Below, piece after piece: positions 34,061 through 48,507 of a stretch of DNA of 64,000 bases. The DNA is taken from IMG/VR virus record IMGVR_UViG_3300027782_000065, positions 17,664 to 81,663 of that record. One strand, given 5' to 3'. The notes beneath the pieces are model-generated. The model saw only the letters and a program-made list of their open reading frames with translations, made no database searches and was not told where the DNA came from. Position 1 is the stretch's first letter, and every line of letters begins with the position of its first letter. This stretch comes from a virus (lineage: Duplodnaviria > Caudoviricetes). A program made the position numbers and the translations under genes.

Positions 34061-34089
34061 ATTATAAAGGATTTAGTTTCAAATGTCAA
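34061..34089 (-). promoter_or_regulatory. sigma70-type early promoter
   Basis: TTGACA (34089-34084), 17 nt, TATAAT (34066-34061): perfect consensus. Confidence 0.85.
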
Positions 34090-34930
34090 TCCCCATATTT
34101 CTAAAAATATCCAATACTTCATCATAAAAACATGAATGACCTTTATATTCATCAATACTAAAGTGCTTGCTCGGCCATTCAAAATCTATGACATCTTTTG
34201 GAAAAGATAAAAATGCTTTGGTAATTGTTTGAATGGATACATCTTGAGAATGATACCAATAGATGGCACCATCATACAAAGACTTATCAGGTGTTAAAAT
34301 CAAATTATTAATCTCATCATTAAATTTAGCACAGTAGTGAGCACCAATATAAGTTTCTGTTCTTATAAAATGATTATAATATTTGTGCAGATGTTGTTTA
34401 GTAACTTTGATTTGATCTATCAATCCATATTTTTCTAAGGGAATATCAAAAAGGTCAATTAGGTCTTCAGTATAACCCCAGAAAATATGGTCCCTAGGGG
34501 AAAAAAGCAAATTGAGAAAAATACCGGCAACGAATATTCTACCTTTGGGTTTATTCTGATCATATTGATATGAAGAAACTTTATCCTTATTCATCATAAA
34601 AAAATCAAACATTTTCATCATACTATCGTATGTGTATTTTTGATCAGATCTCATCTTCACAGAATACATTGTATTTGATTTTTTTAATCCTTGAAGTGAT
34701 GAATAAATTTGAAGATTTCTATTATCAGTTCCTGGAGATTCTGGGTACTCATTTATTACAAATTGGACTCTATCGGAAAAATATTTTGGATAGACTGGAC
34801 CTTTATTATCTTCCCAACAGGAAACAATAATATCATTTACACAAGGTATATTCAGATAAGACTCAATAATCTGATCCGAATACTCATCATATTTTCCTTG
34901 AAGGATTATATTTACTTTATCTTCAATCAT
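34079..34930 (-). CDS. WavE-like lipopolysaccharide/glycan synthesis protein
   Basis: IILQG..IIVSCW..NRNLQIYSSLQGL....VKMRSDQ..F.PRDHIFWG..E.YIG. Confidence 0.7.
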   Translation of the reverse strand: MIEDKVNIILQGKYDEYSDQIIESYLNIPCVNDIIVSCWEDNKGPVYPKYFSDRVQFVINEYPESPGTDNRNLQIYSSLQGLKKSNTMYSVKMRSDQKYTYDSMMKMFDFFMMNKDKVSSYQYDQNKPKGRIFVAGIFLNLLFSPRDHIFWGYTEDLIDLFDIPLEKYGLIDQIKVTKQHLHKYYNHFIRTETYIGAHYCAKFNDEINNLILTPDKSLYDGAIYWYHSQDVSIQTITKAFLSFPKDVIDFEWPSKHFSIDEYKGHSCFYDEVLDIFRNMGIDI

Positions 34931-34945
34931 GGTTAGAAATATAAA

Positions 34946-37891
34946 TCATAAAACTGGTGTAACTGGTTCTCCAATCTTTTCAAGATTTTCGTAAATTGCT
35001 TTAAGATGTTTTGAATCTATTTCTTTATATTCTGAAAGAATTTCTTTCAATAAACTTTTTGTCTCTTCGGATTTTCCCCACTGCCATCCTGATATAGCCT
35101 TTTCAAAAAGTAATCCATATTTTCCAGGATATTCAACATTAGTTTTTAGCGGAGGGCAATCAAAATTACAATATCTCAATGCAAGATCAGCATTCATATA
35201 ACAATCTTGCCACCACTCTCGTTTTTCTGCAAATCGACTTAACAGAAAATATGCTTCTGGACGCTGTGGTAAAAATGCCTGTGCTTGCCAAAGTAATGAC
35301 CTAGCACTACCATCTCTAGTTCCCTGCTTCTCATAGCAATATGATCCACGAATTAATGCTTCATAAGCAAGATCTTCATCCTCTGCTCGTTCTGCACATC
35401 TCAGAAAATATGTCAGTGCTGGTGCAGTATGTCCTTGATTCTCATACCAAACACCTAGTGCAAAATTATTTTCTGCATTTTCAGTATCTAAAGAATAAGT
35501 AGTAATTAATTCTTCAATTTCAGATTTAACAATAGGATTTAAATTGATTTCTTTTTCACTTCTATCTTTATTTTTCCACCATTCTAACACAAGATCTCTT
35601 GCAACTTTATGATTTGTTTTTTGCCCACCATTCACATCATCATCATTATTTTCAAATGTAGAAACAAACTCAGTATTCTCAACAAATAATGGAATTGTAT
35701 AAGTTTTTCCAAGAGAAGTAAAAATAATATTTTCAATTAGTGGCATTACATCATAATTTACAACCTCTAAATGATAGGTGTCTCCTTTGATATAATTATC
35801 AATGATTTTTTTGGCATAATCTCTAGTCAAAATATATGCAGTTGCTGCCCAATCGTCCCAATATCTTTCACGAATCTCAAAAGTGTCAAAATTACTTCTA
35901 ATAGTCAATAACTGAACACAATCAGCATCTTCTGGAAGAGAATCAATGAATTCATCCCAAGTAAAATCCCAATAATCCACAGTTTCTAAACTTAAATCAT
36001 CTTCACAGAAGAATCCATAATCTTCTTGAGTATTTTCATACCAATCTTTAATTGCCTTTAAATGAGAAACGCAGCAACCTTTTGTACCATCATTTAAAGT
36101 ATGTAAGTGCTTTCCAGTTACGATATCATTAGATTCCGAAAATCTTTTTGATATGATTGATTTTGGAGAAATATTATATTTTTCAAATTGATCTTCAATA
36201 CTTTTCTGCCTATCAACACATTCTTCTAAACTCATGTAATACACAGATACAAGTCCATCTAATTTATTTTTCATATTAATTTCTTCTGCAAAATAATTTT
36301 GATCGTCCATTTGAACAATATTCCAATTAGTTTTGGGTTTTACATAATAATCGGAAATTTTACCGATCATATTTTTATTTTCCTCAATATGTTTTTGAGA
36401 TAATGCATATTCAACTTGCCACTCCAATTCCCGACCACTATAATTAGGACTTAAATTTTCACGAATCATATTCTTATAATTTTCATCCCAACCAAATCCT
36501 TCAAAATTTTCAGTTCTTTTGCCATCTGGATGTGGCAAATGAATTAAATAATTATCATAATCAAGTTTATTCTCATTTAATCCCATATATCTAAGACGTT
36601 GAAATATTTCATCATCCTCATAAGAATAACACTTACCAAGATTTTCATTATAACCACCAATCTTATTGTAATTTTCTTTTGAAATAAACAAGAGACCTGT
36701 TAGATATAAGAAGTATGGACTATAAGAATTAAAATATTCTTTTAACTGCTCATCACTCATTTCATGCTTATTAATCATATAAAGACCAGTCTCAGGATCC
36801 AAATACTCTGGACTATTGGTATTATAAGATCCAGAAGTAAATGAATTATGATCTGGAAAATATTTTTCTACAAAATTATAATAAGGATTGATCAAATAAT
36901 CAGTATCTAGTTTAAGAATATAATCACCAGTTGCAAGGCTTGCGGCAAGATTTAAAGGTTGTGGTTGATTGAAATATTTTTTATCTTCAACTCTTACTAT
37001 CTTAATTCTTGAATCTAATTTTGTAAGATGATTTAAAGGTTCATCCGAACTCCAATCAACAATAATTATCTCCTGGATATTCTTAATTGACAACCAAGAA
37101 TTTAATGATACTCTAAGAGAATCGTATCTATTTTTACATGCACAAATTACTGAAATACTCATATTTGGTGAATTGGAAACATCAAGATTTTCAGAGTGAG
37201 GGATAATTTTAATATTTGAATCTTCTTTATGAAATGAAAGTGTGGCAATAAACAAATTTACTCCATTTTGATAAATTGGAGAATAATCAATATGCTCATA
37301 TTCTTTTTGATACTCACTTGTCAGTTTTAATCCAGAAGACTCTACAATTTTAATTAAATTTTCTGGAGAAATAAATTCTCCAGGATCTGGAATAAGAGTA
37401 ACATCGGTAGAAGAAATTAATCTACCGTTAGGTTTTAAAACTCTATAAACTTCATCCGCAATATTTTTCCATCCCCAATTTTCAATTCCGTGTCCCCATA
37501 CAGGTTCAAAACAATGTACGGAGCAACTGTCAATCACAACATCTACACTTGCATCCTCCATTTGTTTCAGTTCATATAAGGCATCACCAAGAATCATTTT
37601 ACTTAATCCTTTAGGACACCAATGATCAACAGAATTTAAATCTATTCCAGTAACATCATTTCCCCAACTAGCAATAATATGAGGAACACAACCATCTGCA
37701 GATCCCAATTCAATTACTTTTAAATTATTTTTACCAATTGACTTGAATTCCTCTAATATTGTGACCCATTTCACCATCGCAGCATCTATGTTCCAAAATT
37801 TATGGTGAAATCCAATCTCATCCCATTTTTCTTGTTCAAGTATATTTCTACATTTAGAAATATCTTTATCAGTAAGTACTCTATTATACAT
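34946..37891 (-). CDS. multidomain protein: SAM methyltransferase + GT2/GT7-like glycosyltransferase + GT25-like glycosyltransferase + TPR
   Basis: VIELGSADG..VLKPNG; CACKNR..IIIVDWSS..KLDTD..GGYNE..YEDDE; VYYMSL..R..GCCVSHL..FCEDD..AYILTR; TPR-like C-terminus. Confidence 0.75.
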   Translation of the reverse strand: MYNRVLTDKDISKCRNILEQEKWDEIGFHHKFWNIDAAMVKWVTILEEFKSIGKNNLKVIELGSADGCVPHIIASWGNDVTGIDLNSVDHWCPKGLSKMILGDALYELKQMEDASVDVVIDSCSVHCFEPVWGHGIENWGWKNIADEVYRVLKPNGRLISSTDVTLIPDPGEFISPENLIKIVESSGLKLTSEYQKEYEHIDYSPIYQNGVNLFIATLSFHKEDSNIKIIPHSENLDVSNSPNMSISVICACKNRYDSLRVSLNSWLSIKNIQEIIIVDWSSDEPLNHLTKLDSRIKIVRVEDKKYFNQPQPLNLAASLATGDYILKLDTDYLINPYYNFVEKYFPDHNSFTSGSYNTNSPEYLDPETGLYMINKHEMSDEQLKEYFNSYSPYFLYLTGLLFISKENYNKIGGYNENLGKCYSYEDDEIFQRLRYMGLNENKLDYDNYLIHLPHPDGKRTENFEGFGWDENYKNMIRENLSPNYSGRELEWQVEYALSQKHIEENKNMIGKISDYYVKPKTNWNIVQMDDQNYFAEEINMKNKLDGLVSVYYMSLEECVDRQKSIEDQFEKYNISPKSIISKRFSESNDIVTGKHLHTLNDGTKGCCVSHLKAIKDWYENTQEDYGFFCEDDLSLETVDYWDFTWDEFIDSLPEDADCVQLLTIRSNFDTFEIRERYWDDWAATAYILTRDYAKKIIDNYIKGDTYHLEVVNYDVMPLIENIIFTSLGKTYTIPLFVENTEFVSTFENNDDDVNGGQKTNHKVARDLVLEWWKNKDRSEKEINLNPIVKSEIEELITTYSLDTENAENNFALGVWYENQGHTAPALTYFLRCAERAEDEDLAYEALIRGSYCYEKQGTRDGSARSLLWQAQAFLPQRPEAYFLLSRFAEKREWWQDCYMNADLALRYCNFDCPPLKTNVEYPGKYGLLFEKAISGWQWGKSEETKSLLKEILSEYKEIDSKHLKAIYENLEKIGEPVTPVL

Positions 37892-37900
37892 ATGATTTAT

Positions 37901-38371
37901 TCAAACAATTTTTTTATAAAACAAAGGTTTATCGGTACAAATACCATAACTGTTTTTTATATATTCAATTCCGTGAGGAAAACTGTACAATGAAATACTT
38001 TCAGGCAAAACAATTACAGATTTTGAATATGGATATTGACCAACCAACACCCAACCAATGCCTTTACTTGTTAAGGTATAACGATCAGTTTCGTGCCAAA
38101 AATAATTAAATGCGGTTTTAGAAAATTCAGAAAGTGCTTCTAAATTTTTACAATGAACCCATAAATTTTCCCTATATTGACTTAACCAATACAAACTGAC
38201 AACATATTGTGGTTCATCATGCCCCAAATAAAAACACTTATCTTTATTATCATAACGCACATCAATCTCCACATCAAATCCTTGGGATAATGCTTCTTCA
38301 ATATATTCTGGACTATTTTCCCTCAGTGGATTAGGTCCATTGAGATTTCCACGATGAGAAATAATTTTCAT
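37901..38371 (-). CDS. glycerophosphodiester phosphodiesterase-like (GDPD/PLC fold) protein; start MKIISHRG at 38371
   Basis: ISHRG..ENS....AL..GFDVEIDV..LGHD..WVHCKN. Confidence 0.75.
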   Translation of the reverse strand: MKIISHRGNLNGPNPLRENSPEYIEEALSQGFDVEIDVRYDNKDKCFYLGHDEPQYVVSLYWLSQYRENLWVHCKNLEALSEFSKTAFNYFWHETDRYTLTSKGIGWVLVGQYPYSKSVIVLPESISLYSFPHGIEYIKNSYGICTDKPLFYKKIV

Positions 38372-38372
38372 A

Positions 38373-39611
38373 TCAAAACTCCAAAATCCATTCGGGGAGA
38401 GATCCACCACCAGTTTCATATCCCCATTTATCTATGGCGGCACGAAACTCTGGTCCAGGGGTTTTATCAATTGCCTGTCTCATTGCCAGAGCACCTGCCA
38501 GAGTGCCCTCAGGATGCCCGTGAATGGCACCTCCACAGTTGGCAAGGAAATCTGTACCAAACTTCTCTGCTGTGGTATTAACGATGCCTGGATGCATCCC
38601 ACAACTCAATGCTGGAAGTACATTGCGATTATGAAGTGTTGCAAGAGTTTGACGAAGTTCATTCTCATCATCACTCAGATAACCACCCCACATTCCAGCA
38701 TGAATCGTATCAACACCCATCAATCCGGCAAGATCACAAATCACATCCCAGTCTATTCCAAATGCGTGGCGTTTATCGGTAAGAATTTTGTCGCCACTCT
38801 TTTGAAAGTGTTGAAACATCGGTAGATCAAGTCTACGAATAGAGTTATAAACACCCAAACCACTCCAAAAATTAATATGGATACCGTTTCCACCATTATT
38901 AGAAACGAACTTAGCCCTTTCAAGAATCGTGTGGTGATCCCCATTAATACAGAACGCATAGATTACATTCCTCCCACAGTTATTCACAATATTTGAAATC
39001 AGTTCTACACGATCTTCAAGACGGCAGAACGATGGATTTGCCAGAATCTCATCTTCCTTAATGAAATCTACACCACCATCAAGAAGTTCTTTCACCATCT
39101 CAGAAAGAGTTTGTGGCGAAATACCAGTCTTTGGTTTTACAATAGCACCAGAAAGTGGTTTGTCATAACGATTTACAAACTTACGGATTCCATCAATACC
39201 ATACTTGGGTCCAAGAAACTGTGCTTCCACATCAGCAGGGAATTCAAGTTTCTGAAGACGACAAGATTTGAATACATCAATATCTAATTGACCTCCCATT
39301 ACCTGACAAAGAAGATGAGAAATACCATCACCTTCCCAATCTGTATTTACTTTAGGAAAACCAATTTTTACTACACCTTCTGTGAGTTGTGAGAGTTCAT
39401 TTTCATCTGCGTAGATAACACAAGATGATAGTTCAAACAGTTCATCGTTTTCCCAACGATTACGAACTTTTGGATTACCCACACTCTGCCCAATAGCAAG
39501 ATTCCAAGCAGCATCACGAAGATTGCCAACATTGGAATATGATTCAATATAATATGTTGCTACTACACAACGTTCTCTTTCTTGATCTGTTAGTTCTCTA
39601 AAAAATTTCAT
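38373..39611 (-). CDS. RuBisCO-like protein (form IV RLP), not a bona fide carboxylase
   Basis: IVKPKTG, GGVDFIKEDE, SCGMHP, GGAIHGHP motifs; positions equivalent to K334, H294 and N123 appear substituted. Confidence 0.9.
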   Translation of the reverse strand: MKFFRELTDQERERCVVATYYIESYSNVGNLRDAAWNLAIGQSVGNPKVRNRWENDELFELSSCVIYADENELSQLTEGVVKIGFPKVNTDWEGDGISHLLCQVMGGQLDIDVFKSCRLQKLEFPADVEAQFLGPKYGIDGIRKFVNRYDKPLSGAIVKPKTGISPQTLSEMVKELLDGGVDFIKEDEILANPSFCRLEDRVELISNIVNNCGRNVIYAFCINGDHHTILERAKFVSNNGGNGIHINFWSGLGVYNSIRRLDLPMFQHFQKSGDKILTDKRHAFGIDWDVICDLAGLMGVDTIHAGMWGGYLSDDENELRQTLATLHNRNVLPALSCGMHPGIVNTTAEKFGTDFLANCGGAIHGHPEGTLAGALAMRQAIDKTPGPEFRAAIDKWGYETGGGSLPEWILEF

Positions 39612-39934
39612 TGATCAACCTCAAACTTATCTCCAGGAATAGATGGAACTTTAACTACAACCACAACACAGTCTTCTAAAAATACAGGATTTGCAACTTC
39701 ACCTTTTTCAAAAACAAACACATCTCCAGAGTTAAGTTCTTTACTCTGAATAGTCATTTTACCCTGCACAAGAACATTATATTCTACACTTTCTTTATGA
39801 TAATGGGGTGCCCAATATTCACCTTTTTGGTGAGTAAGAACACCGACTTCAAAATCTTTAGTTCTCAAAAGTGATGGTTCAAAGTCTCCAATAAACCATC
39901 CACGATGATAATCCTTCAATTGAGTTACATTCAT
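39608..39934 (-). CDS. cupin-fold protein (sugar epimerase/isomerase-like)
   Basis: RGWFIGDFEP..FEVG....KGE..PHYH..VEYN..GKM. Confidence 0.75.
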   Translation of the reverse strand: MNVTQLKDYHRGWFIGDFEPSLLRTKDFEVGVLTHQKGEYWAPHYHKESVEYNVLVQGKMTIQSKELNSGDVFVFEKGEVANPVFLEDCVVVVVKVPSIPGDKFEVDQ

Positions 39935-40644
39935 ACTTTACGAATAAAATTTTCAAGATCTTCAGGTACTCCAACAGGATTATGTTGCCAGGATGGAATA
40001 TGATGAATGCCAACTTTTAATCCAGCACCAATCATATGATTATATGTTGGTCCGACATAAAATTCACCATTCGGTGCCCTATCATTACATTCTATCATAT
40101 TTTCCGTACTTTGTACAAAGTATTTCCCCTTTCTCCAATAATGAATCCCATTCAATGATATATCACTTATGACTTGCTTTTCTTTAATTTCTTGCACAAA
40201 TCCATTTTTATCAAGTCTAGCATAACTATTTTTTGGAGTGTCTGTACTATAAGTAACAACTAACCCATCATACTTATAATACCTAGCAGTTGTAAGAAAC
40301 AGATCTGCATCCCACCACATAATTTGATCACAATTTGCAATCACCAATTCCTCTTCACTATTAATAAAATCTTTAAATAAAAGACAACTTGAGGCAGGAC
40401 CTTCTGTAGTTTCTTCTACGCTAATAATTTTTGCCGATGGGAGAAGTGAATGTAAAAGAGTACAGACCTGATCATAGTAACTATCTTTTCTAATTACAAA
40501 GTGATAAGTTCCCACTAATCCTAACGATTGTATTGCTCGTTGAATCATAGGAATTCCATCAATTTCTATTAATGGTTTTGGAATTTTATAGGTATCTCTG
40601 GGAAATCTAGTCCCTTCACCTGCCATTGGAATTAAAATATTCAT
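39931..40644 (-). CDS. sugar-phosphate nucleotidyltransferase (NTP_transferase family)
   Basis: ILIPMAGEGTRF..PKPLI..T.GPA.S..IANCDQ..EFYVGP.YN..G.PEDL. Confidence 0.85.
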   Translation of the reverse strand: MNILIPMAGEGTRFPRDTYKIPKPLIEIDGIPMIQRAIQSLGLVGTYHFVIRKDSYYDQVCTLLHSLLPSAKIISVEETTEGPASSCLLFKDFINSEEELVIANCDQIMWWDADLFLTTARYYKYDGLVVTYSTDTPKNSYARLDKNGFVQEIKEKQVISDISLNGIHYWRKGKYFVQSTENMIECNDRAPNGEFYVGPTYNHMIGAGLKVGIHHIPSWQHNPVGVPEDLENFIRKV

Positions 40645-41456
40645 TCCTTAAAAGAGTATGTTAATTGATATACTAGATTATGGAAATCATCAGAGATGAA
40701 TGGAGTTTCACATTCTCCAGTCAAATAATAATTATAATACCTTTTTATGGATTCTTCCAAAGGATCACTACCTATAATAATTTCAGTACCTTCAAAATTA
40801 ATAGTATTAAAGGTATTAGATTCTATTATTTTTTCATCTACAATAAATCTAGTATAAGTTTTATTTGAAAATCCAAACTCAAAAGTAATATTTTTATTAT
40901 CCAAAATAAATTTTGATTTATAAATGGTAGTGCTTACTTTTTCAACAGAATGTAACGTAACATCATCCAATTCAAGTGATTTTAAAATACAAATCATGTG
41001 AGGTAAAAAATCTTCCAATATGGTCAATTTTCTATCAACATAATTAGCAGAAAAAAATTGAATATCTAAATTTAGAAAATTATTAGGTATAATTTCTTTA
41101 ATTTTTTTTATTTTTGATGAATTATACCAAAGGTAATTTACATAAGGATTATTTTTATACGAATTTTTTTTATTTTTAATATTAAAAGGTTTTTCAACAA
41201 AAACTTTTTTATTAAAAAGTGATATTATTTCATGATGATATAAAGGTCCAGTAAGAATAAAAGTTGGTAAATTTTTATCAACCTCTTCTATAAGATTTCT
41301 TGTAAGTATATTTTTACAATTTACAAAAACATCTTTCTTATCGGTAACTAAATTTTGAATTTGATATCCACTTGATTCTAATTTTTTTGCAACTCTAGAT
41401 CCCCAATTCCCATACCCAATGATGTTAATTGGAATATCACAATTAAAACTATCCAT
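40641..41456 (-). CDS. Gfo/Idh/MocA-like oxidoreductase
   Basis: IIGYGNWG Rossmann motif; VFVEKP; DFLPH. Confidence 0.6.
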   Translation of the reverse strand: MDSFNCDIPINIIGYGNWGSRVAKKLESSGYQIQNLVTDKKDVFVNCKNILTRNLIEEVDKNLPTFILTGPLYHHEIISLFNKKVFVEKPFNIKNKKNSYKNNPYVNYLWYNSSKIKKIKEIIPNNFLNLDIQFFSANYVDRKLTILEDFLPHMICILKSLELDDVTLHSVEKVSTTIYKSKFILDNKNITFEFGFSNKTYTRFIVDEKIIESNTFNTINFEGTEIIIGSDPLEESIKRYYNYYLTGECETPFISDDFHNLVYQLTYSFKE

Positions 41457-42294
41457 TAGTAACCTCGTTTAAATATTCATTAACTTCTCTTGGTAAAATG
41501 TCTGCCATCCAGTTTCTCATTCCACCAAAATATCTATTTAATTTATGAGCAAGTGCCCCACCTGCTTGATGTAAAACTTTAATATGCATTATATCATTAG
41601 TCACTGGATCGTTCAAATATAGTTGATTGTCCTTAATATACATCTGCTTCCAACTTTGCCAAGGATCATATTCTGGTCCCCATCCATTGTTGATTCCATA
41701 AGATAAATTACTACCTATTGGATCAACAATTTCAGAAGTATACTTGTTAGAATGAAAAATTAAATTTAAAACCCATTGTTCGTCAAGACATTGCTCAGGT
41801 TTATCTGAAAAATAATGATTAACATCATGCCAGTGATACCAAAATTCTTTATTGTTAGATGCCAAAAGTCCACCACAAACATATTTTTGCGTTGGTATAA
41901 TATCCCCATTTCCGAATGGGGGATGGTGGGGAAGTTGAGTTGGAGACCATGCTTGTGCCAAATTAAAACTATTATAACATCTAGAACTTATAATATCAGC
42001 ATTACTATTAAACAACTCATCCATCGGACCTGTTATGGTTGAATCAGCATCCATATGGATCACCATATCATAATTTTCAATAAATGGGATACAACTTGGG
42101 GGAGTCATCCACTTATTTTTTTTTGGTTCTATCCATGAATATTTTCCATATACTTGATTACTCATTTCTGTATTAAAAATAATACAATCAACTTCCGGAT
42201 GAAAATATTTAATTGAATTGATTAATTTATTTACACCCAAAAAATCTGCATAGTCATCAGTACACCAAGTTGTAATAAGAATTTTTTTACTCAT
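41449..42294 (-). CDS. putative glycosyltransferase (GT-A fold)
   Basis: IHMDAD DxD motif; CGGLL; DEQWVLN; VLHQAG. Confidence 0.6.
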   Translation of the reverse strand: MSKKILITTWCTDDYADFLGVNKLINSIKYFHPEVDCIIFNTEMSNQVYGKYSWIEPKKNKWMTPPSCIPFIENYDMVIHMDADSTITGPMDELFNSNADIISSRCYNSFNLAQAWSPTQLPHHPPFGNGDIIPTQKYVCGGLLASNNKEFWYHWHDVNHYFSDKPEQCLDEQWVLNLIFHSNKYTSEIVDPIGSNLSYGINNGWGPEYDPWQSWKQMYIKDNQLYLNDPVTNDIMHIKVLHQAGGALAHKLNRYFGGMRNWMADILPREVNEYLNEVTNG

Positions 42295-43003
42295 AATCTA
42301 GAATTACTTCGATTGTTTTTGTATTCATATAATTCTTGAGAATTTTTGCATTTGGAATAACACAATGACCTCCAATTTTTTTAGTTGGATAAAGAACTGG
42401 TCTAACCACATTTTCTTTTCCTAATTTTATATAACCTTCATTATACGATTGATTATAAAGAGTCATAACTTCTTCAAAATCAATCTCTTCATTTTTACAA
42501 AGATTTGCAACATCAGAATGAAAAGCAATGCACATCCCATAATAAGTTGTATCTAACAGTTTAGCATATTCAGTTGTCTTACTATCTTTGCAAATATGAC
42601 TTCTAATTCCAATACTATCTAAATGCTTTTTATATAGTATGGCGGAATTATCATCTTCTGGTCCAATATATTTCAAAAAAGTTTTCATACCCAAATCAAG
42701 ATTAGGATGCAATCCCCTCATAGGTGAGTGACAAACTTTACCACCAATAAGTTTAGTTGTTCCAGGAGAAACAGTGGAGTGAATGATTGTATAGTTTGGA
42801 TTTGCTTTTGCAACATATTCTTTAACAATATCCACAAAGTTATCGATGGATGGAATACAAATATTAAGTATTTCAACTCCATTAATATCATCATCAAAAT
42901 TTTGAAATGGATCTACTACTCTAATATCAAATCCACCAAAAGATCTATACACTTTTGCAATGCTGCTACCAATTTCTCCATGTCCAATGATTCCGATTTT
43001 CAT
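42287..43003 (-). CDS. UDP-glucose/GDP-mannose dehydrogenase family protein (no C-terminal domain)
   Basis: IGIIGHGEIG; IIHSTVSPGTT; EYAKLLDTTY; IGGHCVIPN with catalytic Cys. Confidence 0.8.
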   Translation of the reverse strand: MKIGIIGHGEIGSSIAKVYRSFGGFDIRVVDPFQNFDDDINGVEILNICIPSIDNFVDIVKEYVAKANPNYTIIHSTVSPGTTKLIGGKVCHSPMRGLHPNLDLGMKTFLKYIGPEDDNSAILYKKHLDSIGIRSHICKDSKTTEYAKLLDTTYYGMCIAFHSDVANLCKNEEIDFEEVMTLYNQSYNEGYIKLGKENVVRPVLYPTKKIGGHCVIPNAKILKNYMNTKTIEVILDYE

Positions 43004-43980
43004 CAAACACAAACTCCATTAATATAGTATTCTACCACTTCTTGAATAACTTCGTCAACCCCTTTAGTCGGACTCCACCCAAGCCTTTCTTTAATTTTTT
43101 CACTATCGGGAATTTTTTCCGGTGCTTCTGCAAAAAGTGGTCCATGAAGATCTATTGGATCAACATGAAGAATTTTTGATTTAGTTTGAGTCATTTCTTT
43201 AACTTTTTCTGCAAGGTAAAGAATTGTTCTTTCATTATTTTTATTACCAATATTCCACTCCTCATTCCAATCAGAATCATTAGCAGTGGAAGCAAGATAA
43301 ATTCCATCCACAATATCTTTAACCCAAGTGAATGCTCTCAACTGCAGACCATCATAATAAACTGTTATGTCTTGATTGTTTAATGCCTGATTAACAAATC
43401 TAGGAAGAACAAATCCACCATTAGGAAGTTGATATTTACCAGTGACATTAAATGGTCTGATAATCTGATATTTAAAATCAGAGTCAATTTTTGCATGATT
43501 CGTTAAAACAATTTCAGATAATAATTTAGCAACTGCATATTCATTTCTAACAGTAAAATCACCATGAAGAACTTTATCACTCTCTTCTTTCAAATAACTT
43601 TTACCGTCCCTATGTCCATAAATTTCTGAAGTAGAAATAAATATTAAAGGACATTGATTATACTTGGCAGTATTAATTGCCCAGTAAATATCATCTAAGA
43701 TAATTCTTGCCATATTACCAGAGTGTTTTAAAACACCCACAGGTCCTACAGGAGAAGCAAGATGAAGAACTAAATCAAATTTGGGTAAAGATTTATAATC
43801 AACATCTAAAATATTTTTTCCAATAACATCAACATCTTCAACCAAATGATAATCTGTAGGTATAGCATTTGTAGATAAATTATCTATGACACAAATGTCC
43901 CAACCTTCAGATTTCCATTTTTCAATGCAGTGTGCTCCAATGAATCCTAATCCACCAGTTATTAATATTTTTTTATTCAT
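43003..43980 (-). CDS. NAD-dependent epimerase/dehydratase/decarboxylase (extended SDR)
   Basis: ITGGLGFIG; FISTSEIYG; YAVAK; RPFNVTG; RAFTWVKD. Confidence 0.9.
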   Translation of the reverse strand: MNKKILITGGLGFIGAHCIEKWKSEGWDICVIDNLSTNAIPTDYHLVEDVDVIGKNILDVDYKSLPKFDLVLHLASPVGPVGVLKHSGNMARIILDDIYWAINTAKYNQCPLIFISTSEIYGHRDGKSYLKEESDKVLHGDFTVRNEYAVAKLLSEIVLTNHAKIDSDFKYQIIRPFNVTGKYQLPNGGFVLPRFVNQALNNQDITVYYDGLQLRAFTWVKDIVDGIYLASTANDSDWNEEWNIGNKNNERTILYLAEKVKEMTQTKSKILHVDPIDLHGPLFAEAPEKIPDSEKIKERLGWSPTKGVDEVIQEVVEYYINGVCV

Positions 43981-44731
43981 AATTTTTAATTATTTGTCTT
44001 TCATTAAGCATTTTTGATGCAGAATTCCATAATGGATTCAAATTTCCATTGTTAAGTAACTTATTTACTTCATCATAGTAAATGTTTAATTTAGATTCTT
44101 TCCAGGAATTCCAGGAATTTGATATTTCAGGAACAGAATTTTCGATAAATTTATCCCAATGGTTGTAATTTTCTTCTGGAATATTTTTATATATAACGCT
44201 ATTATCATACTGATTATATTTACTTTGCCAATGAACTGTAGCATCAATAGAAGAATTAGTTAATGATGTTTTCCAACTATGGTCATATGTGGATTCTAAA
44301 CTTTCATAAATCGCAAAATCATTCATGTATATTCTCCAGACCCAATCACGATCCTCCCAACCAGAATGTGTAAATCTTTCATCCCACCAACCAATTTTCC
44401 TAACCAATTCTTTAGAAAATCCCATGAATCCGACATTATATAAAAGAACACATGCAAATCCGCTTTCTAATAAATCAATCATTTTTTCCACTTCTTCTAC
44501 TGTTGGAAGTGTTCTATCATTAATTAATATCATCCACTCTGTAGATGAAGTTGCCACAGAATGATTAATTAATTTAGAATAAGAATCATATATTTCAGGG
44601 TGACGATCAATTCTATTATTCCAATGAACTTTATATTTTTCTTTTAAAGGTTCTAAAATTTTAATTTGATTATCTACAACTTCTCTGCTGCACCCACAAT
44701 GAAGACATATGGTAAATTCTTCAATTTTTAT
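43973..44731 (-). CDS. GT2-like glycosyltransferase; frame opens 58 codons upstream of the tracked GTG but has no ATG (ATA at 44731)
   Basis: IKIEEFTICLHCGC...LINHSVATSSTEWMILINDR..GWWDERF..GWEDRDW. Confidence 0.7.
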   Translation of the reverse strand: MKIEEFTICLHCGCSREVVDNQIKILEPLKEKYKVHWNNRIDRHPEIYDSYSKLINHSVATSSTEWMILINDRTLPTVEEVEKMIDLLESGFACVLLYNVGFMGFSKELVRKIGWWDERFTHSGWEDRDWVWRIYMNDFAIYESLESTYDHSWKTSLTNSSIDATVHWQSKYNQYDNSVIYKNIPEENYNHWDKFIENSVPEISNSWNSWKESKLNIYYDEVNKLLNNGNLNPLWNSASKMLNERQIIKNYE

Positions 44732-45978
44732 TTTTTTTTTATCTTAACAAATCCGATCCCGTGATCTTTAGGGCAACAATTTTCAATTACATCCCATTTT
44801 GTTCTATCTAAATGTTCTAGAAAAATTTTAGGACCAGGATGGCAAGAGGTATCGTGAAATCCAACAATTCCATCATCTGCAAGAAGATTTGTATATTCCC
44901 AATCTAATAGTACTTGATTAATGCTATGCCATCCATCAATAAAAATAAAATCAAATTTTTCTACACCAATCTGTTTAAAAATATTCAAATTCTCACTATA
45001 ATTTGAACTATTATTTTGAATCGTATAAATGTTATTTTCAGAATCTCTTAAAAAAGATCTATCATCTATATCAATACCAACATAGATTGTTTCTTTCTTT
45101 TTATTATTAAAAAATACATGACAGAAAGATTCTGTCGAATTTCTTCCTATTCCAATTTCAAGTATTGCTTTAGCATTATCTCGTAGTTTGTTAAATTGTT
45201 CCAACAAATGATATCTATTACAATCAGTAACTTCAGCATCATAAATTTCATTTTGATTATCATCAATGCCACGAAATCCATATCCATAAGGATGTGGTAA
45301 AGACCAATCTCGATCATCAAATTCAGTGAAGGTCCTAATATCTTCAATTAAATCTTGATTAAATTTCATTTCATCAAACTCCTTTATGTTTTTATTTTCA
45401 AATGCACAATCATATTCATGTAAGGAAGGAACCTGCTCATATCCCATTCCCCTTAACATACATTCAAGATTGTATTTATAATCCCCAAGATGTTTATATT
45501 CAAACTCTATTTTTTTAATTTTATACTTTTTCCAATTAAAATTCAAAAGTATTTCAGATTCTATTCCCTCAATATCAAGTAGAAGATAATCCAAATAGTA
45601 AATATTATATTTTTCAAATAGTTTATCTAATGTTAAGCAAGGAACTTTAAACGATTTAATTTCACCATCTGCTAAACCAGGATTCCATCTCTCATCAGAA
45701 TGATTTAAAACATGCGATAACTTAGAAGAACAAATCTGACCAAAAATATCTGCAGTATTATAAAAAATTTCAAGTTCATTCTCCTTTTCAAAGGGAGATT
45801 TTATTGCAATATTTTCAACATTTACATTATCATAATTTGAATAAGATTCTTTTATCTTATCAATAAAGATAGAATTTGCATCTACAAATAATCCAAATTC
45901 TATCTTAGAATAATTAGATTTTAAATATCTTGATAGATCATCTTCTCCATCATTTGTGCCAATTTGAACTACCCTCAT
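44728..45978 (-). CDS. FkbM-family methyltransferase fused to a second class I SAM methyltransferase domain
   Basis: VQIGTNDG..LFVDAN..LLLDIEG..IEFE; ILEIGIG..DFIFIDGWH..GIVGFHD. Confidence 0.75.
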   Translation of the reverse strand: MRVVQIGTNDGEDDLSRYLKSNYSKIEFGLFVDANSIFIDKIKESYSNYDNVNVENIAIKSPFEKENELEIFYNTADIFGQICSSKLSHVLNHSDERWNPGLADGEIKSFKVPCLTLDKLFEKYNIYYLDYLLLDIEGIESEILLNFNWKKYKIKKIEFEYKHLGDYKYNLECMLRGMGYEQVPSLHEYDCAFENKNIKEFDEMKFNQDLIEDIRTFTEFDDRDWSLPHPYGYGFRGIDDNQNEIYDAEVTDCNRYHLLEQFNKLRDNAKAILEIGIGRNSTESFCHVFFNNKKKETIYVGIDIDDRSFLRDSENNIYTIQNNSSNYSENLNIFKQIGVEKFDFIFIDGWHSINQVLLDWEYTNLLADDGIVGFHDTSCHPGPKIFLEHLDRTKWDVIENCCPKDHGIGFVKIKKK

Positions 45979-46883
45979 TATAAAAATCTCTCCACTATTT
46001 TTTTAGTTGTTAAATTATTTTTAGTATGATTGAAAATATAATCATTAATCCAGTCATAATTTGGATGGACTTCATACCTTCTAGCGTATTTATTAGTTTC
46101 CAAAAATACTTCTTTTGGAAAATCCATCATCACAAAAGGAGGACAATCCCCAATATCCGGAAAATATGGAATACATTTATTTGCAAGAATTTCAAGATGC
46201 CTCATACAATTCCATTGACCTTTTTTCCAAGTCATCCCATAATAAGATTTTGCATAATCATTATAATATGATTCTTCATCATTGTAAATGTATGTTTTTC
46301 TATCTCCAGGAATAATATCTGCAAATATTTTTTCCTTCTTTGGATTTTCTTTGATTAATTGAGATTCTGGTATGCCAAAACAAATTGGATTTGCTGCTCC
46401 AATACTTTCCAATTGTGTTTTCCAAACGGTTCCATATGATGCTATTCCATTTGAATGAGCAAAGTTCCACGGATTATCTGATCCATCAATAAAATGAATT
46501 TTATCTTTTGGATAATATTTGACAACCTCATCAAGATAATCTAAACATTGCCTTCTTGGCATTCCTTCATGAGTATAAACACATCCGTAAATTATAATGT
46601 CATAAAATTTGGATTTTATTTTATGAACAATAGTAGATTCAGATTGAACTCTAGGTGTATGATTTAATTTACCATATAAAGTAAATGTAGTATTAGGCAT
46701 TCCACCATATATGTAATTTGACACATCATCATATATGCTTTCTTTTTTAAATTGAAATCCGGACATCATATACTGTGGATAATGAGTTTCATAAATTTCA
46801 AATCCACTATCAATTAAACCATGGTAAATTGTATCGGATTGATAATCTGGATAAGCAAAATTATAGACATATAAAATTTTCAT
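45978..46883 (-). CDS. putative glycosyltransferase-related protein (start MKILYV)
   Basis: DYQSD..YHGL..FIDGSD..KKGQWNCMRHLEILAN.CIPYF pattern seen in glycan islands. Confidence 0.5.
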   Translation of the reverse strand: MKILYVYNFAYPDYQSDTIYHGLIDSGFEIYETHYPQYMMSGFQFKKESIYDDVSNYIYGGMPNTTFTLYGKLNHTPRVQSESTIVHKIKSKFYDIIIYGCVYTHEGMPRRQCLDYLDEVVKYYPKDKIHFIDGSDNPWNFAHSNGIASYGTVWKTQLESIGAANPICFGIPESQLIKENPKKEKIFADIIPGDRKTYIYNDEESYYNDYAKSYYGMTWKKGQWNCMRHLEILANKCIPYFPDIGDCPPFVMMDFPKEVFLETNKYARRYEVHPNYDWINDYIFNHTKNNLTTKKIVERFL

Positions 46884-46887
46884 AGTT

Positions 46888-48507
46888 TTATTTTCCTTTT
46901 CTCCAAAAAACTGAGTATTTATTAATATCCACAATAGTATCCGTTATATTATGCTTATTTCTATAATCAACAACTGCTTTATGTGCTCCAGGAAGTGTCC
47001 AATCATCAACTATTAAATATCCACCTGCAGATAATCTTGGATATAAATTTTCTAATGCATCCCATGTAGAACCATACATATCACCATCTAATCTAATTAA
47101 TGAAAAAATTTCATTTTTCAGTGTCGGTAAAGTATTTTCAAACCACCCCTTCACAAAAATAATATTTTCATCTAATAAATCATATGCTTTAAAATTGTTA
47201 CTAACTTCATCAATCGATATTTTCATATAATCACACATCCAATGAGGATCTCCTTCTTCATCTGGAAATCTTTCTATATTAGGATATGGCAAACCTTCAA
47301 ATGAATCGGCAACAAAAATTTTTCTTTTTTGCTCATAAATTTTTATTAAACCTGCCATAAAAATAGTAGAACCTCCTCTCCACACACCAGTTTCAATCAA
47401 ATCTCCAGGAATATTATCTTTCATAACAGTATCAAAACACTCCTGAATATTATCAAGTCTCTTTAGACCTATCATAGATTGTGATCTTTTACTTGTAGTT
47501 AAACAATCTTCGGTTACACAAACACCATCCAAATGATCCTCTCTCAAAAGTTCATGGTTATATAAGGCATCTGTTACACTTTTTTTCAATAAATTTAAAT
47601 ACAAAAACTTAGTATTGTCTGTTGGAAAATTTTGAAAATTTCTAAAGAACTTTTCAGGAAAAAACTTAATTATTAATTTTTTTAAATCTTCTGGATAATT
47701 ATTAAAATCATAATCAGAACATGATATAGATTCATCGTAATATAATTTTTTATTTTTTATACAATTCTCAAGATAAATTTCATTTGTTAAATTTTCATTA
47801 TTAACTTCTTGATGAGCAAATGAATTAATTTTCAATTTAATTTTTTCAACATCTCCAAAATAAGTAAAATGCCATCCAGCATTTTCAATAAAATCAGTTA
47901 CTATCTCCATTTCATCTCTTTGATTTTGATCAAAATATTTAAAAACTCCACGCATAAACTCAGATCCATTTTTAATACAAGTGTCAACTGTTGCAACCGA
48001 TGTTCCCACCCATTGATCAGTTAAATATATATTAAAATTATAAACAAATGCTTGATGTTTTAAACCTACAACGGTATCATGATTTATAGTATTATCTAAA
48101 AAATTTTTTACAACTTTTTTTTTTGGAATTTCGTCCAAATCACTCACCATTATAATATCATCAGGAGAAAATTGGTCCAGATTTTTACTAATAAAATTTC
48201 TTTGTTCCTTTTCTAATCTCCAAGCATCATTATAGTAATACCTCCCATCAATTTCATATTTAATTCTAATAATTTTTTTGCGAATATTCTCAGGAATATC
48301 ATCAATTACTTCATCCAAATAATATGGTTTTGGAATTGCTGAATAAGTGTGATTGCATTCACAGATTAAAAAATAATCTACAATATCATTCAAATAATTT
48401 AAACGAAGTTTAAGTAAGTCAAATTCATTAAAAAATGAAAATGAATCAATTATTTTTTTGTTGTTTTTGTAAGAATTAAATTTATTCATAGTTAAATAAT
48501 AATCCAA
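46888..48507 (-). CDS. GT17-like N-acetylglucosaminyltransferase fused to TylF/MycF-type O-methyltransferase
   Basis: FSFFNEFDLL.LRL..SDLDEIP..GWHFTYFG; MIGLKRL..PGDLIETGVWRGG..DSFEG..RLDGDMY..IVDD. Confidence 0.8.
   Translation of the reverse strand: MDYYLTMNKFNSYKNNKKIIDSFSFFNEFDLLKLRLNYLNDIVDYFLICECNHTYSAIPKPYYLDEVIDDIPENIRKKIIRIKYEIDGRYYYNDAWRLEKEQRNFISKNLDQFSPDDIIMVSDLDEIPKKKVVKNFLDNTINHDTVVGLKHQAFVYNFNIYLTDQWVGTSVATVDTCIKNGSEFMRGVFKYFDQNQRDEMEIVTDFIENAGWHFTYFGDVEKIKLKINSFAHQEVNNENLTNEIYLENCIKNKKLYYDESISCSDYDFNNYPEDLKKLIIKFFPEKFFRNFQNFPTDNTKFLYLNLLKKSVTDALYNHELLREDHLDGVCVTEDCLTTSKRSQSMIGLKRLDNIQECFDTVMKDNIPGDLIETGVWRGGSTIFMAGLIKIYEQKRKIFVADSFEGLPYPNIERFPDEEGDPHWMCDYMKISIDEVSNNFKAYDLLDENIIFVKGWFENTLPTLKNEIFSLIRLDGDMYGSTWDALENLYPRLSAGGYLIVDDWTLPGAHKAVVDYRNKHNITDTIVDINKYSVFWRKGK

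What the first reader, a model, noticed from the sequence alone, without database searches (positions are those of the whole stretch)
38373..39611. Phage form IV RuBisCO-like protein with a rewired active site
Seen (by-eye alignment, spinach RbcL numbering): K175/K177 (IVKPKTG), K201-D203-E204 (KEDE), H327 and the phosphate loops (SCG, GGA) are kept. K334 appears as Y (GGYL), H294 as Q and R295 as K (HFQK), N123 as G and E60 as G. Established: K334 and H294 are needed for carboxylation, and RLPs catalyse enolisation, isomerisation, epimerisation or (de/trans)carboxylation of sugar phosphates or acids. Inference: an RLP of probably uncharacterised chemistry carried by a virus; it should not be read as a carbon-fixation gene.
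Basis: partly seen in the sequence, partly recalled or inferred. Interest (0 to 1): 0.75.

Follow-up and report, generated by a model that had tools for sequence, protein, structure and literature searches.

The report
Phage RuBisCO-like enzyme feeding sugar activation
A marine cyanophage-like virus carries an intact RuBisCO relative that cannot fix CO2 and is almost always paired with, and in giant viruses fused to, a sugar-activating enzyme inside surface-sugar gene clusters, so it most likely prepares an unusual sugar phosphate for glycan building, a role never shown for this enzyme family.

Summary
ORF 38373-39611 (-) encodes a 412-aa RuBisCO large-chain homologue. It keeps K175/K177, the K201-D203-E204 metal site, H327 and the phosphate loops. 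It has G, G, Q, K and Y at E60, N123, H294, R295 and K334. This signature is invariant in a monophyletic clade down to 35% identity, and the gene is under strong purifying selection (dN/dS about 0.08). The clade matches the phage/Beckwithbacteria 'form IV-like' group of Jaffe et al. 2019, so phage RLPs are not new, and this scan has flagged the same cassette on other DNA. What that paper does not discuss is the context. The RLP sits next to a PF00483 nucleotidyltransferase in 84/87 viral-set loci and 40/44 cellular loci, usually with a 108-aa cupin and a 156-aa mini-GDPD phosphodiesterase. Giant-virus contigs encode RLP-NT-cupin as one polypeptide. RLP-less cyanophage and bacterial versions of the cassette pair the same NT with RpiB, DHBP synthase or a HAD_2 domain. 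The best reading is a Mg2+/carbamate-dependent enolising isomerase or epimerase of a ketose (bis)phosphate that supplies the NT in a glycan island. The substrate is unknown. Cultured Azospirillum oleiclasticum and Nonomuraea rosea carry the cassette, so this can be tested.

The parts
38373..39611 (-). RuBisCO-like protein (412 aa) of the 'form IV-like' clade. Signature: G60 N65 P66 G123 / KPK / KxDE / Q294 K295 / H327 / Y334 / S-C-G / GG.
   Evidence: dN/dS about 0.08
39608..39934 (-). 108-aa single-domain cupin with canonical motif 1 (HYHKESVE...G). Its stop overlaps the RLP start (ATGA).
   Evidence: Pfam Cupin_7/Cupin_2 below cut-off; PDB 3d82 and KdgF, weak; 48% identical to the C-terminal domain of the giant-virus fusion P0122; found in 72/87 and 14/44 loci
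39931..40644 (-). 237-aa sugar-phosphate nucleotidyltransferase (NT; PF00483, RmlA/GalU/GlmU-type fold), specificity unknown. This is the near-constant partner of the RLP.
   Evidence: adjacent in 84/87 and 40/44 loci; fused to the RLP in P0125, P0121 and P0122
37901..38371 (-). 156-aa mini-GDPD/PLC-like phosphodiesterase (p156). Invariant HRG, EN, ExD, GHD, WxHxK. Its start lies 1 nt after the RLP stop; the longer ORF starting at 38419 is probably not used.
   Evidence: alignment A1; AF2 pLDDT 95.9; Foldseek top hits are GDPDs at TMq 0.5-0.57; no Pfam or PDB sequence hit; found in 73/87 and 31/44 loci
40641..41456 (-). 271-aa Gfo/Idh/MocA-type NAD(P) oxidoreductase, coupled to the NT by an ATGA overlap. 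It was not found by tblastn (E<=1e-5) in any of the 87 RLP loci compared (the 44 cellular loci were not searched for it), so it is an accessory to the cassette.
   Evidence: protein atlas score 0.96, structural TM 0.83 to GFO_IDH_MocA clusters; no Pfam hit above threshold; absent from the other loci
34946..37891 (-). 981-aa multidomain methyltransferase + GT2 + GT25 glycosyltransferase, directly downstream. It probably uses the activated donor.
   Evidence: homologues follow the cassette in 27/87 loci
34079..50973 (-). Glycan-biosynthesis island (WavE-like, SDR epimerase/dehydratase, UDPG-dehydrogenase-like, FkbM and TylF methyltransferases, GT17) embedded between phage tail/baseplate genes and virion structural genes.

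Best explanation
The gene encodes a catalytically competent RuBisCO-superfamily enzyme that does not carboxylate. It keeps the carbamylated-lysine/Mg2+ site and the K175/K177 acid-base pair that generate an enediolate from an alpha-hydroxy-ketone phosphate. It has lost the residues that add CO2 and cleave the C-C bond. It is therefore expected to isomerise or epimerise (possibly eliminate from) a ketose phosphate or bisphosphate, most plausibly a pentulose derivative. Its product is handed to the co-translated nucleotidyltransferase, which makes an NDP-activated unit. The cupin is an optional second isomerase/epimerase. The mini-GDPD performs a phosphodiester step, either transfer of the phospho-unit or opening of a cyclic phosphate. 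The glycosyltransferases of the island then install the unit on a host or virion glycan. Shown: the active-site pattern, its conservation, purifying selection, gene coupling, the fusions and the alternative partners. Inferred: the direction (RLP upstream of the NT), the substrate class and the roles of the cupin and p156.
For: 1. The metal/enolisation core is invariant and Q294/Y334/G60/G123 are fixed across the clade. dN/dS has a median of 0.077.
2. The junctions are ATGA or 1-nt spacers across oxidoreductase-NT-cupin-RLP-p156.
3. The NT is adjacent in 84/87 loci (80 viral, 4 bacterial, 3 giant-virus-like) and 40/44 loci from species-representative genomes of bacteria and archaea.
4. There are Rosetta-stone fusions. 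P0125 is RLP+NT. P0121 and P0122 are RLP+NT+cupin, with the P0122 domains 30% (E 3e-23) and 48% (E 2e-31) identical to the window's separate proteins, on contigs carrying Pox_VLTF3/P9_TM.
5. Where no RLP is present, the same NT family is fused or adjacent to enzymes that act on sugar phosphates, not NDP-sugars. These are RpiB in phage Bellamy (followed by the cupin), DHBP synthase in S-SKS1, and HAD_2 in S-CAM9, SAR11 and two alphaproteobacteria.
6. The context is always glycan-related: GTs, methyltransferases, SDRs, CysDNC.
7. The P1 phosphate loops (S379, G381, G403, G404) are kept, along with a basic residue at 295 and H327. MtnW-type monophosphate RLPs lose the last two. This fits a substrate with a second anionic group.
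8. There is precedent for an RLP isomerase followed by a cupin (R. palustris RPA2169/2170; PMC5893883) and for C3 epimerisation of the enediol in RuBisCO active sites (XuBP; PMC9833046).
Against: No substrate, product or nucleotide specificity is known. The NT's nearest solved relative (4evw) is itself uncharacterised. Typical PF00483 enzymes need an anomeric sugar-1-phosphate, and it is unclear how enolisation alone would deliver one. The cassette has no kinase or mutase. The cupin is missing from the SAR11 and DPANN versions, and the oxidoreductase was seen only in this window, so the pathway is not uniform. One full-length cellular locus (L099) has the RLP without NT, cupin or p156. Gene neighbourhood and fusion show a functional link, not the order of steps.
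Confidence: 0.55

Rival explanations
1. The RLP acts after the nucleotidyltransferase. It would enolise an NDP-keto-sugar, for example one produced by the Gfo/Idh/MocA oxidoreductase or an SDR dehydratase, to epimerise it or move the carbonyl. That is the job usually done by RmlC- or FdtA-type cupins.
For: A keto-sugar-forming oxidoreductase is coupled upstream in this window. SDR dehydratases lie in several islands. N123->G and E60->G remove side chains near the metal, which would enlarge the pocket (inference). A fusion does not fix the order of steps.
Against: All characterised RLPs and RuBisCOs use small sugar phosphates. The alternative partners of the NT (RpiB, RibB, HAD_2) all act on sugar phosphates. 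The oxidoreductase is absent from the other 87 loci compared. The P1 phosphate loop is conserved as in monoester-binding relatives.
Confidence: 0.15
2. The RLP and cupin are a salvage pair like the DeepYkr RLP and methylsulfurylase of the MTA-isoprenoid shunt. They would recycle SAM by-products (methylthio- or 5-deoxy-pentulose phosphates), and their location in glycan clusters would be incidental.
For: An adjacent RLP + cupin is the hallmark of that shunt (PMC5893883). Phage islands are rich in SAM-dependent methyltransferases.
Against: The constant partner is the NT, not the cupin. The cupin is absent in SAR11 and DPANN versions and remains with the NT when the RLP is absent. No MtnA or MtnP was seen among the annotated neighbours. 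In 401 alphaproteobacterial genomes, the cassette cupin found strong matches only in cassette-type loci, and its weak matches were not beside any RLP. The clade is separate from other RLPs.
Confidence: 0.07
3. It is a bona fide or residual carboxylase: an auxiliary carbon-fixation gene that boosts or redirects the host's Calvin cycle.
For: The host of related phages is a cyanobacterium with a large RuBP pool. The Mg2+/carbamate site, K175, and a basic residue at 295 plus H327 are kept.
Against: K334->Y, H294->Q, N123->G, E60->G and T65->N are invariant. These positions are needed for CO2 addition and C-C cleavage (established RuBisCO enzymology). The protein is below all curated RuBisCO cut-offs. 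The family also occurs in heterotrophs such as SAR11, CPR, DPANN, Nonomuraea and giant viruses. No small subunit, PRK or carboxysome genes were seen beside it among the genes examined.
Confidence: 0.02
4. It is a non-catalytic scaffold or pseudo-enzyme retained for structure or regulation.
For: Several canonical catalytic residues are replaced.
Against: The replacements are fixed to specific residues (Q, Y, G, N-P, C), the metal and acid-base residues are invariant, and dN/dS is about 0.08. Fusion to two enzymes argues for a catalytic role.
Confidence: 0.03

Closest known systems
'Form IV-like' RuBisCO-related proteins of phages and Beckwithbacteria (Jaffe, Castelle, Dupont & Banfield 2019, Mol Biol Evol; PMC6389311)
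   Same: Both are IMG/VR myovirus-type contigs carrying a highly divergent RLP that lacks carboxylase residues and branches outside the other RLPs. A Beckwithbacteria MAG carries a 51%-identical homologue with the same cassette (L104). This window's gene is almost certainly a member.
   Different: That paper left the function open and does not mention nucleotidyltransferase, cupin, glycosyl or polysaccharide context. This report adds the cassette, the fusions, the alternative partners and a wider distribution (SAR11, DPANN, Planctomycetes, giant viruses, two cultured bacteria). I could not align against their deposited sequences directly.
DeepYkr RLP (5-methylthioribulose-1-P 1,3-isomerase) with its adjacent cupin methylsulfurylase (R. 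rubrum, R. palustris RPA2169/2170)
   Same: An RLP that only enolises and isomerises a pentulose phosphate, encoded next to a small cupin. The downstream product (DXP to MEP) is eventually activated by a nucleotidyltransferase; that last point is recalled knowledge.
   Different: The clade and active-site signature differ. There are no mtnA or mtnP neighbours. The NT rather than the cupin is the constant partner. No homology of the cupins was detected beyond the fold. The context is glycan synthesis, not sulfur salvage.
MtnW/YkrW 2,3-diketo-5-methylthiopentyl-1-phosphate enolase
   Same: Same fold, KPK and KxDE core, and enolisation without carboxylation. Structural TM is 0.81 to 2oem.
   Different: It scores 173 bits against a 409 cut-off. 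MtnW-type sequences have P/A/L at 295/298/327 and K at 123, whereas this clade has K/R, variable, H and G. They lie on separate branches.
Form III RuBisCO, including IF-2B (ribose-1,5-bisphosphate isomerase) fusions of CPR/DPANN
   Same: Form III is the best sequence and structure match (2cwx 6.8e-41; TM 0.85). The logic of a RuBisCO-family enzyme fused to the enzyme of the adjacent pathway step is the same (P0163, P0172).
   Different: Form III keeps E60, T65, N123, H294, R295, H298 and K334 and carboxylates RuBP. This protein has none of E60, N123, H294 or K334.
GDP-heptose/ADP-heptose-type 'isomerase - kinase - HAD phosphatase - nucleotidyltransferase' pathways (GmhA/HldE/GmhB/HddC)
   Same: The pathway logic is similar: a ketose phosphate is isomerised and turned into the substrate of a PF00483-type NT. 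RLP-less relatives of the cassette contain RpiB, a weak PfkB-like match and phosphatase/HAD_2 genes.
   Different: Here the isomerase would be a RuBisCO-fold enzyme. No kinase is present, and a mini-GDPD replaces the HAD phosphatase. This is an analogy only; it was not tested.

Membership tests
RuBisCO large-chain superfamily | C-terminal TIM-barrel catalytic domain (PF00016) plus N-terminal alpha+beta domain | tested here: met
   PF00016 1e-43. PF02788 scores 19.5 bits, just under its 20.7 cut-off. AF2 pLDDT is 94.2 and TM is 0.85 over the full length to 2d69/2cwx/3a12.
RuBisCO large-chain superfamily | Carbamylatable K201 with D203/E204 metal ligands, plus K175/K177 | tested here: met
   IKEDE and VKPK are present and invariant in the clade.
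Bona fide RuBisCO (forms I-III) | K334, H294, N123, E60 and T65 needed for carboxylation | tested here: not met
   These positions are Y, Q, G, G and N. NCBIfam form III scores 196 vs 497, the large-subunit subfamily 190 vs 438 and form II 109 vs 489.
Form IV RLP (broad sense) | Full-length RuBisCO homologue lacking carboxylase residues | tested here: met
'Form IV-like' phage/Beckwithbacteria clade (Jaffe et al. 2019) | Encoded on myovirus-type phage contigs, groups with Beckwithbacteria sequences, and lies outside the other RLP clades | tested here: inconclusive
   Phage structural genes flank the island. There are 227 IMG/VR relatives and a Beckwithbacteria homologue at 51% identity. The clade is separated with SH-aLRT 99.
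MtnW (DK-MTP-1-P enolase) | Score above the curated equivalog cut-off | tested here: not met
   NF007095 scores 173 vs 409 and TIGR03332 131 vs 514. A true MtnW-type representative (P0222, 522 bits) lies outside the clade.
OiaX (3-oxo-isoapionate-4-phosphate decarboxylase) | Score above the curated equivalog cut-off | tested here: not met
   155 vs 700 bits
DeepYkr RLP (MTRu-1-P 1,3-isomerase) | Adjacent methylsulfurylase cupin, mtnA/mtnP-linked salvage context, DeepYkr clade membership | tested here: inconclusive
   A cupin is adjacent, but no specific homology to cupins beside other RLPs was found. No mtn genes were seen nearby. No labelled DeepYkr reference could be placed in the tree.
GDPD / PI-PLC-like phosphodiesterases (for p156) | HRG...EN...ExD...HD catalytic and metal motifs | tested here: met
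   H6 R7 G8, E18 N19, E35 D37 and H51 D52 are invariant or nearly invariant in 35 sequences.
GDPD / PI-PLC-like phosphodiesterases (for p156) | Complete barrel of about 230 aa and a Pfam GDPD match | tested here: not met
   The protein is only 156 aa and has no PF03009 hit. Foldseek gives TMq 0.5-0.57 and TMt about 0.4 to GDPDs. It is therefore a miniature relative, not a standard member.
Cupin superfamily (for the 108-aa protein) | Motif 1, G(X)5HXH(X)3-4E(X)6G | tested here: met
   Read directly from ...HYHKESVEYNVLVQG.... Pfam Cupin_7 and Cupin_2 hits are below their cut-offs.
Sugar-1-phosphate nucleotidyltransferases (PF00483) | Pfam match above cut-off | tested here: met
   33.3 bits vs a 21.2 cut-off. 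All NCBIfam equivalogs are far below their cut-offs, so the specificity is unknown.

The most novel reading that the evidence does not exclude
The RuBisCO fold has been recruited for biosynthesis. The RLP would take a phosphorylated ketose from central or Calvin-cycle metabolism, such as ribulose-5-P, RuBP/XuBP or sedoheptulose bisphosphate. By enediolate chemistry (carbonyl migration, C3 epimerisation or phosphate beta-elimination) it would create a rare sugar or deoxy-ketose phosphate that the fused or adjacent nucleotidyltransferase activates. That would give phages, giant viruses, SAR11, CPR and DPANN a previously unknown route to a new NDP-linked glycan building block.
Probability: 0.3. 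Interest if true: 0.85.

Novelty: new variant of a known kind. Interest (0 to 1): 0.62.

Why it matters
Every RLP function known so far is catabolic or salvage: methionine salvage, the MTA-isoprenoid shunt and apiose degradation. A clade tied to a nucleotidyltransferase in glycan islands would give the RuBisCO superfamily its first biosynthetic, cell-surface role. It would also explain why abundant marine phages, giant viruses, SAR11 and ultra-small CPR/DPANN cells keep a 'RuBisCO' gene, which metagenomic pipelines routinely annotate as carbon fixation (the JGI names read 'ribulose-bisphosphate carboxylase large chain'). It would point to an unknown activated sugar in phage-host surface interactions. 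The cassette is present in two cultured bacteria, so the question can be tested directly.

Tried and rejected
- Cultured phages: tblastn of the RLP against 50,697 records found nothing, so there is no isolate to lean on.
- p156: no Pfam or PDB sequence match. Only structure prediction and the motif alignment identified it.
- Tabita et al. 2007 (the IV-GOS clade): the paper is not held, so I could not check whether this clade equals 'IV-GOS'.
- Literature searches: 'RuBisCO-like protein' with 'nucleotidyltransferase' and 'cupin' returned no paper. 'RuBisCO-like' with 'giant virus' and 'nucleotide sugar' returned nothing relevant.
- Cupin homology to DeepYkr-associated methylsulfurylase cupins: in 401 alphaproteobacterial genomes the strong hits were all cassette-type, and the weak hits were not beside any RLP. 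No link was shown, but only 1.5 kb flanks and a sample of genomes were examined.
- Earlier scan note that the RLP 'replaces a phosphomannomutase': I saw no PMM. The RLP-less cassettes I examined hold HAD_2, RpiB or DHBP synthase instead.
- P0123 (724 aa): its C-terminal half is not the NT and has no Pfam match. It remains unexplained.
- Small hypothetical proteins flanking RLP-less cassettes: comparing them gave only glycan-island paralogue relationships.
- Beta-elimination by K334 or loop-6 RuBisCO mutants (a recalled lead): the paper I read documents misprotonation to XuBP and altered misfire products in a loop-6 mutant, but not that specific reaction. It stays a recollection.
Full report
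**Observation.** ORF 38373..39611 (-) is real: 412 aa, ATG to TGA.
- It matches Pfam RuBisCO_large at 1e-43.
- Its AF2 model (pLDDT 94.2) superposes on form III RuBisCO at TM 0.85 and on the MtnW enolase at 0.81.
- Kept: K175/K177, K201/D203/E204, H327, S379/G381 and G403/G404.
- Changed: E60->G, T65->N, W66->P, N123->G, H294->Q, R295->K, H298->D, K334->Y and G380->C.
- The motif-to-spinach numbering is standard knowledge; I did not align a spinach sequence.

**Is it a phage gene?** The window belongs to an 81.6-kb IMG/VR record estimated 38% complete.
- The RLP lies in a glycan island of about 17 kb (34-51 kb).
- On one side are collagen-like tail fibres, a baseplate hub and tail proteins. 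On the other are virion structural proteins.
- The nearest DNA matches are T4-like Synechococcus phages.
- No cultured phage among 50,697 records encodes a homologue, but 227 IMG/VR stretches do.
- Pairwise dN/dS against 30 phage homologues has a median of 0.077, so the gene is under strong purifying selection.

**A distinct clade.** An exhaustive search of 1.84 billion 50%-identity representatives found 1,494 clusters at E<=1e-3.
- The first ~22 full-length representatives (35-57% identity) share the same signature. G60, G123, KPK, KxDE, Q294, K/R295, Y334 and S379 are present in all; N65/P66, C380, H327 (two Q) and the second glycine of the GG pair in nearly all.
- The very next hits have ordinary form III or other RLP patterns.
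- In an ML tree, the 30 clade rows form one side of a branch with SH-aLRT 99.
- Outside that branch are an MtnW-type sequence above its curated cut-off, OiaX-like RLPs and form III sequences.
- The window protein is far below all curated NCBIfam cut-offs.
- The tree is unrooted and samples only the nearest 150 representatives, so I make no claim about deep placement.

**Prior knowledge.** Jaffe et al. 2019 (PMC6389311) reported about 80 'form IV-like' RLPs on IMG/VR phage contigs (some Myoviridae) that group with Beckwithbacteria and sit outside the other RLPs. They left the function open.
- The paper does not mention nucleotidyltransferase, glycosyl, polysaccharide or cupin context.
- The GOS paper had already noted new RuBisCO-homologue groups in ocean metagenomes.
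- So a phage RLP is not new, and this window's gene is almost certainly a member of that clade.
- Earlier notes of this scan flagged the same cassette on other DNA. I used them as leads and re-tested their main claims.

**The cassette.** In the window, five genes are translationally coupled: Gfo/Idh/MocA oxidoreductase (271 aa), nucleotidyltransferase (NT, 237 aa), cupin (108 aa), RLP, and a 156-aa protein (p156).
- Three junctions are ATGA overlaps and one is TGAtATG.
- p156 has no sequence-level family match. Its 35-member alignment shows invariant HRG, EN, ExD, GHD and WxHxK, which are the catalytic and metal motifs of GDPD/PLC-type phosphodiesterases.
- The p156 AF2 model (pLDDT 95.9) matches GDPD structures best, at TMq 0.5-0.57. 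It is a miniature GDPD relative.
- The cupin has canonical metal-binding motif 1.
- The NT is a PF00483 enzyme of unknown specificity.

Co-occurrence with the RLP:

| Partner | 87 loci: 80 viral, 4 bacterial, 3 giant-virus-like (tblastn) | 44 loci from 185,579 species genomes (profile HMMs) |
|---|---|---|
| NT | 84 | 40 |
| p156 | 73 | 31 |
| cupin | 72 | 14 |

- In the first set, two of the three loci without an NT hit are cut at a contig end.
- In the second set, three of the four loci without an NT hit are short contigs. L099 is a genuine exception.
- The oxidoreductase occurs only in this window.
- The near-constant core is therefore RLP + NT, with p156 common and the cupin optional. The cupin is absent in the SAR11-type and DPANN versions.
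- Hosts include many SAR11 single-cell genomes, Crocinitomicaceae, Beckwithbacteria, Saccharibacteria, Woese-, Pace-, Nano- and Micrarchaeota, Planctomycetes, Verrucomicrobia and Elusimicrobia.
- Two cultured isolates carry it. Azospirillum oleiclasticum has p156-RLP-cupin-NT followed by CysD, CysNC and a GT41. Nonomuraea rosea has the cassette followed by a GT2, on an island bounded by an integrase and a transposase.

**Fusions.** Searching longer proteins gave three fused forms.
- P0121 (813 aa) and P0122 (817 aa) are RLP + NT + cupin in one chain. The P0122 NT and cupin domains are 30% (E 3e-23) and 48% (E 2e-31) identical to the window's separate proteins.
- P0125 (667 aa) is RLP + NT.
- The contig carrying P0121 also carries Pox_VLTF3 and P9_TM, which are giant-virus markers.
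- p156 is not part of these fusions.
- These Rosetta-stone cases make a shared pathway for RLP, NT and cupin very likely.

**What replaces the RLP when it is absent.** Cultured cyanophages have NT homologues (30-42% identity) but no RLP.

| Genome | Partner of the NT |
|---|---|
| Phage Bellamy | NT fused to RpiB (PF02502, 3.9e-32), followed by a cupin homologue and preceded by a gene annotated as a phosphatase and one with a weak PfkB match |
| Phage S-SKS1 | NT fused to DHBP synthase (PF00926, 5.4e-65) |
| Phage S-CAM9 and a Pelagibacter genome | NT fused to HAD_2 |
| Two alphaproteobacteria | HAD_2 + NT + cupin, with no RLP |

RpiB and DHBP synthase both act on ribose-5-P or ribulose-5-P through enediol intermediates, and HAD_2 enzymes are sugar-phosphate phosphatases or mutases. 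This is my main argument that the RLP works on a sugar phosphate upstream of the NT, probably on a pentulose derivative. It is inference from analogy, not proof.

**Mechanistic reading.**
- The retained carbamate/Mg2+ site and K175/K177 are the enolisation machinery of the superfamily.
- The missing H294, K334, E60 and N123 are the residues used for CO2 addition, hydration and cleavage (established enzymology).
- The clade keeps the P1 phosphate loops. It also keeps a basic residue at 295 and H327, which MtnW-type monophosphate enzymes lose. This hints at a second anionic group on the substrate.
- Chemical precedents exist. The DeepYkr RLP performs a 1,3-isomerisation and is followed by a cupin. 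RuBisCO active sites epimerise the enediol to XuBP.
- I therefore propose an enolising isomerase or epimerase (possibly an eliminase) of a ketose (bis)phosphate that feeds the NT. The cupin would be an optional tailoring isomerase and p156 would do a phosphodiester step.
- Confidence by claim: about 0.95 that it is not a carboxylase, about 0.9 that it is functionally coupled to the NT, about 0.55 that it feeds the NT, and about 0.35 that the substrate is a pentulose.

**Weak points.**
- No substrate is known.
- PF00483 enzymes normally need an anomeric phosphate, and nothing in the cassette obviously makes one.
- The order of steps is not fixed by neighbourhood or fusion.
- I could not place labelled DeepYkr, Photo or IV-GOS references or the Jaffe et al. 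sequences in the tree.

**Verdict.** The gene belongs to an already reported but functionally blank clade. The added value is the near-obligate NT coupling, the giant-virus fusions, the interchangeable feeder enzymes and the availability of cultured carriers. Together these turn 'unknown RLP' into a specific, testable hypothesis of a biosynthetic role in glycan precursor formation.

Noticed in passing
P0194 (583 aa, not in the window): A TIR domain (PF13676, 3.3e-13) is fused to the N-terminus of a different, non-clade RLP that lacks K201 (F at that position). A TIR-RLP fusion could be a defence or signalling protein built on the RuBisCO fold.
   Followed up: no
L007:8001-10175 (P0123, 724 aa): This clade RLP is fused to a C-terminal half of about 330 aa with no Pfam match and no similarity to the NT. 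The NT and cupin are encoded divergently just upstream. The contig also carries DUF5899, ankyrin and AAA genes, so it looks like a giant virus.
   Followed up: partly
L091:5001-6428 (Synechococcus phage S-SKS1 SWZG_00042): A nucleotidyltransferase is fused to DHBP synthase (RibB) in a phage glycan cluster. This suggests activation of a four-carbon ribulose-5-P breakdown product, or a moonlighting RibB. The record annotates it only as DHBP synthase.
   Followed up: partly
window 46888-48507 (-): A single 539-aa protein combines a GT17-type glycosyltransferase with a TylF/macrocin-type O-methyltransferase. The 981-aa protein at 34946-37891 combines a methyltransferase, GT2 and GT25. The island is rich in multi-enzyme fusions.
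   Followed up: no
window 3264-6377 and 61984-63513 (-): Two collagen-like repeat tail-fibre proteins give very strong PHROG tail-fibre hits with many repeated stretches.
   Followed up: no
window 6745-11415 (-) with 9105-11183 (+): A 692-aa ORF lies antisense inside a 1,556-aa ORF. It is probably a compositional artefact of a repetitive structural gene, but this was not checked.
   Followed up: no
L131 / genome G001 (Azospirillum oleiclasticum): This genome holds three RuBisCO-superfamily genes: a bona fide-type one (444 bits to PF00016), a second RLP (225 bits) and the cassette RLP (119 bits). It would serve as an internal comparison system.
   Followed up: no
L099 (uncultured bacterium MAG, 13 kb locus): This clade RLP (55% identity) has no NT, cupin or p156 within 6 kb on either side. 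It is the one clear exception to the coupling.
   Followed up: no
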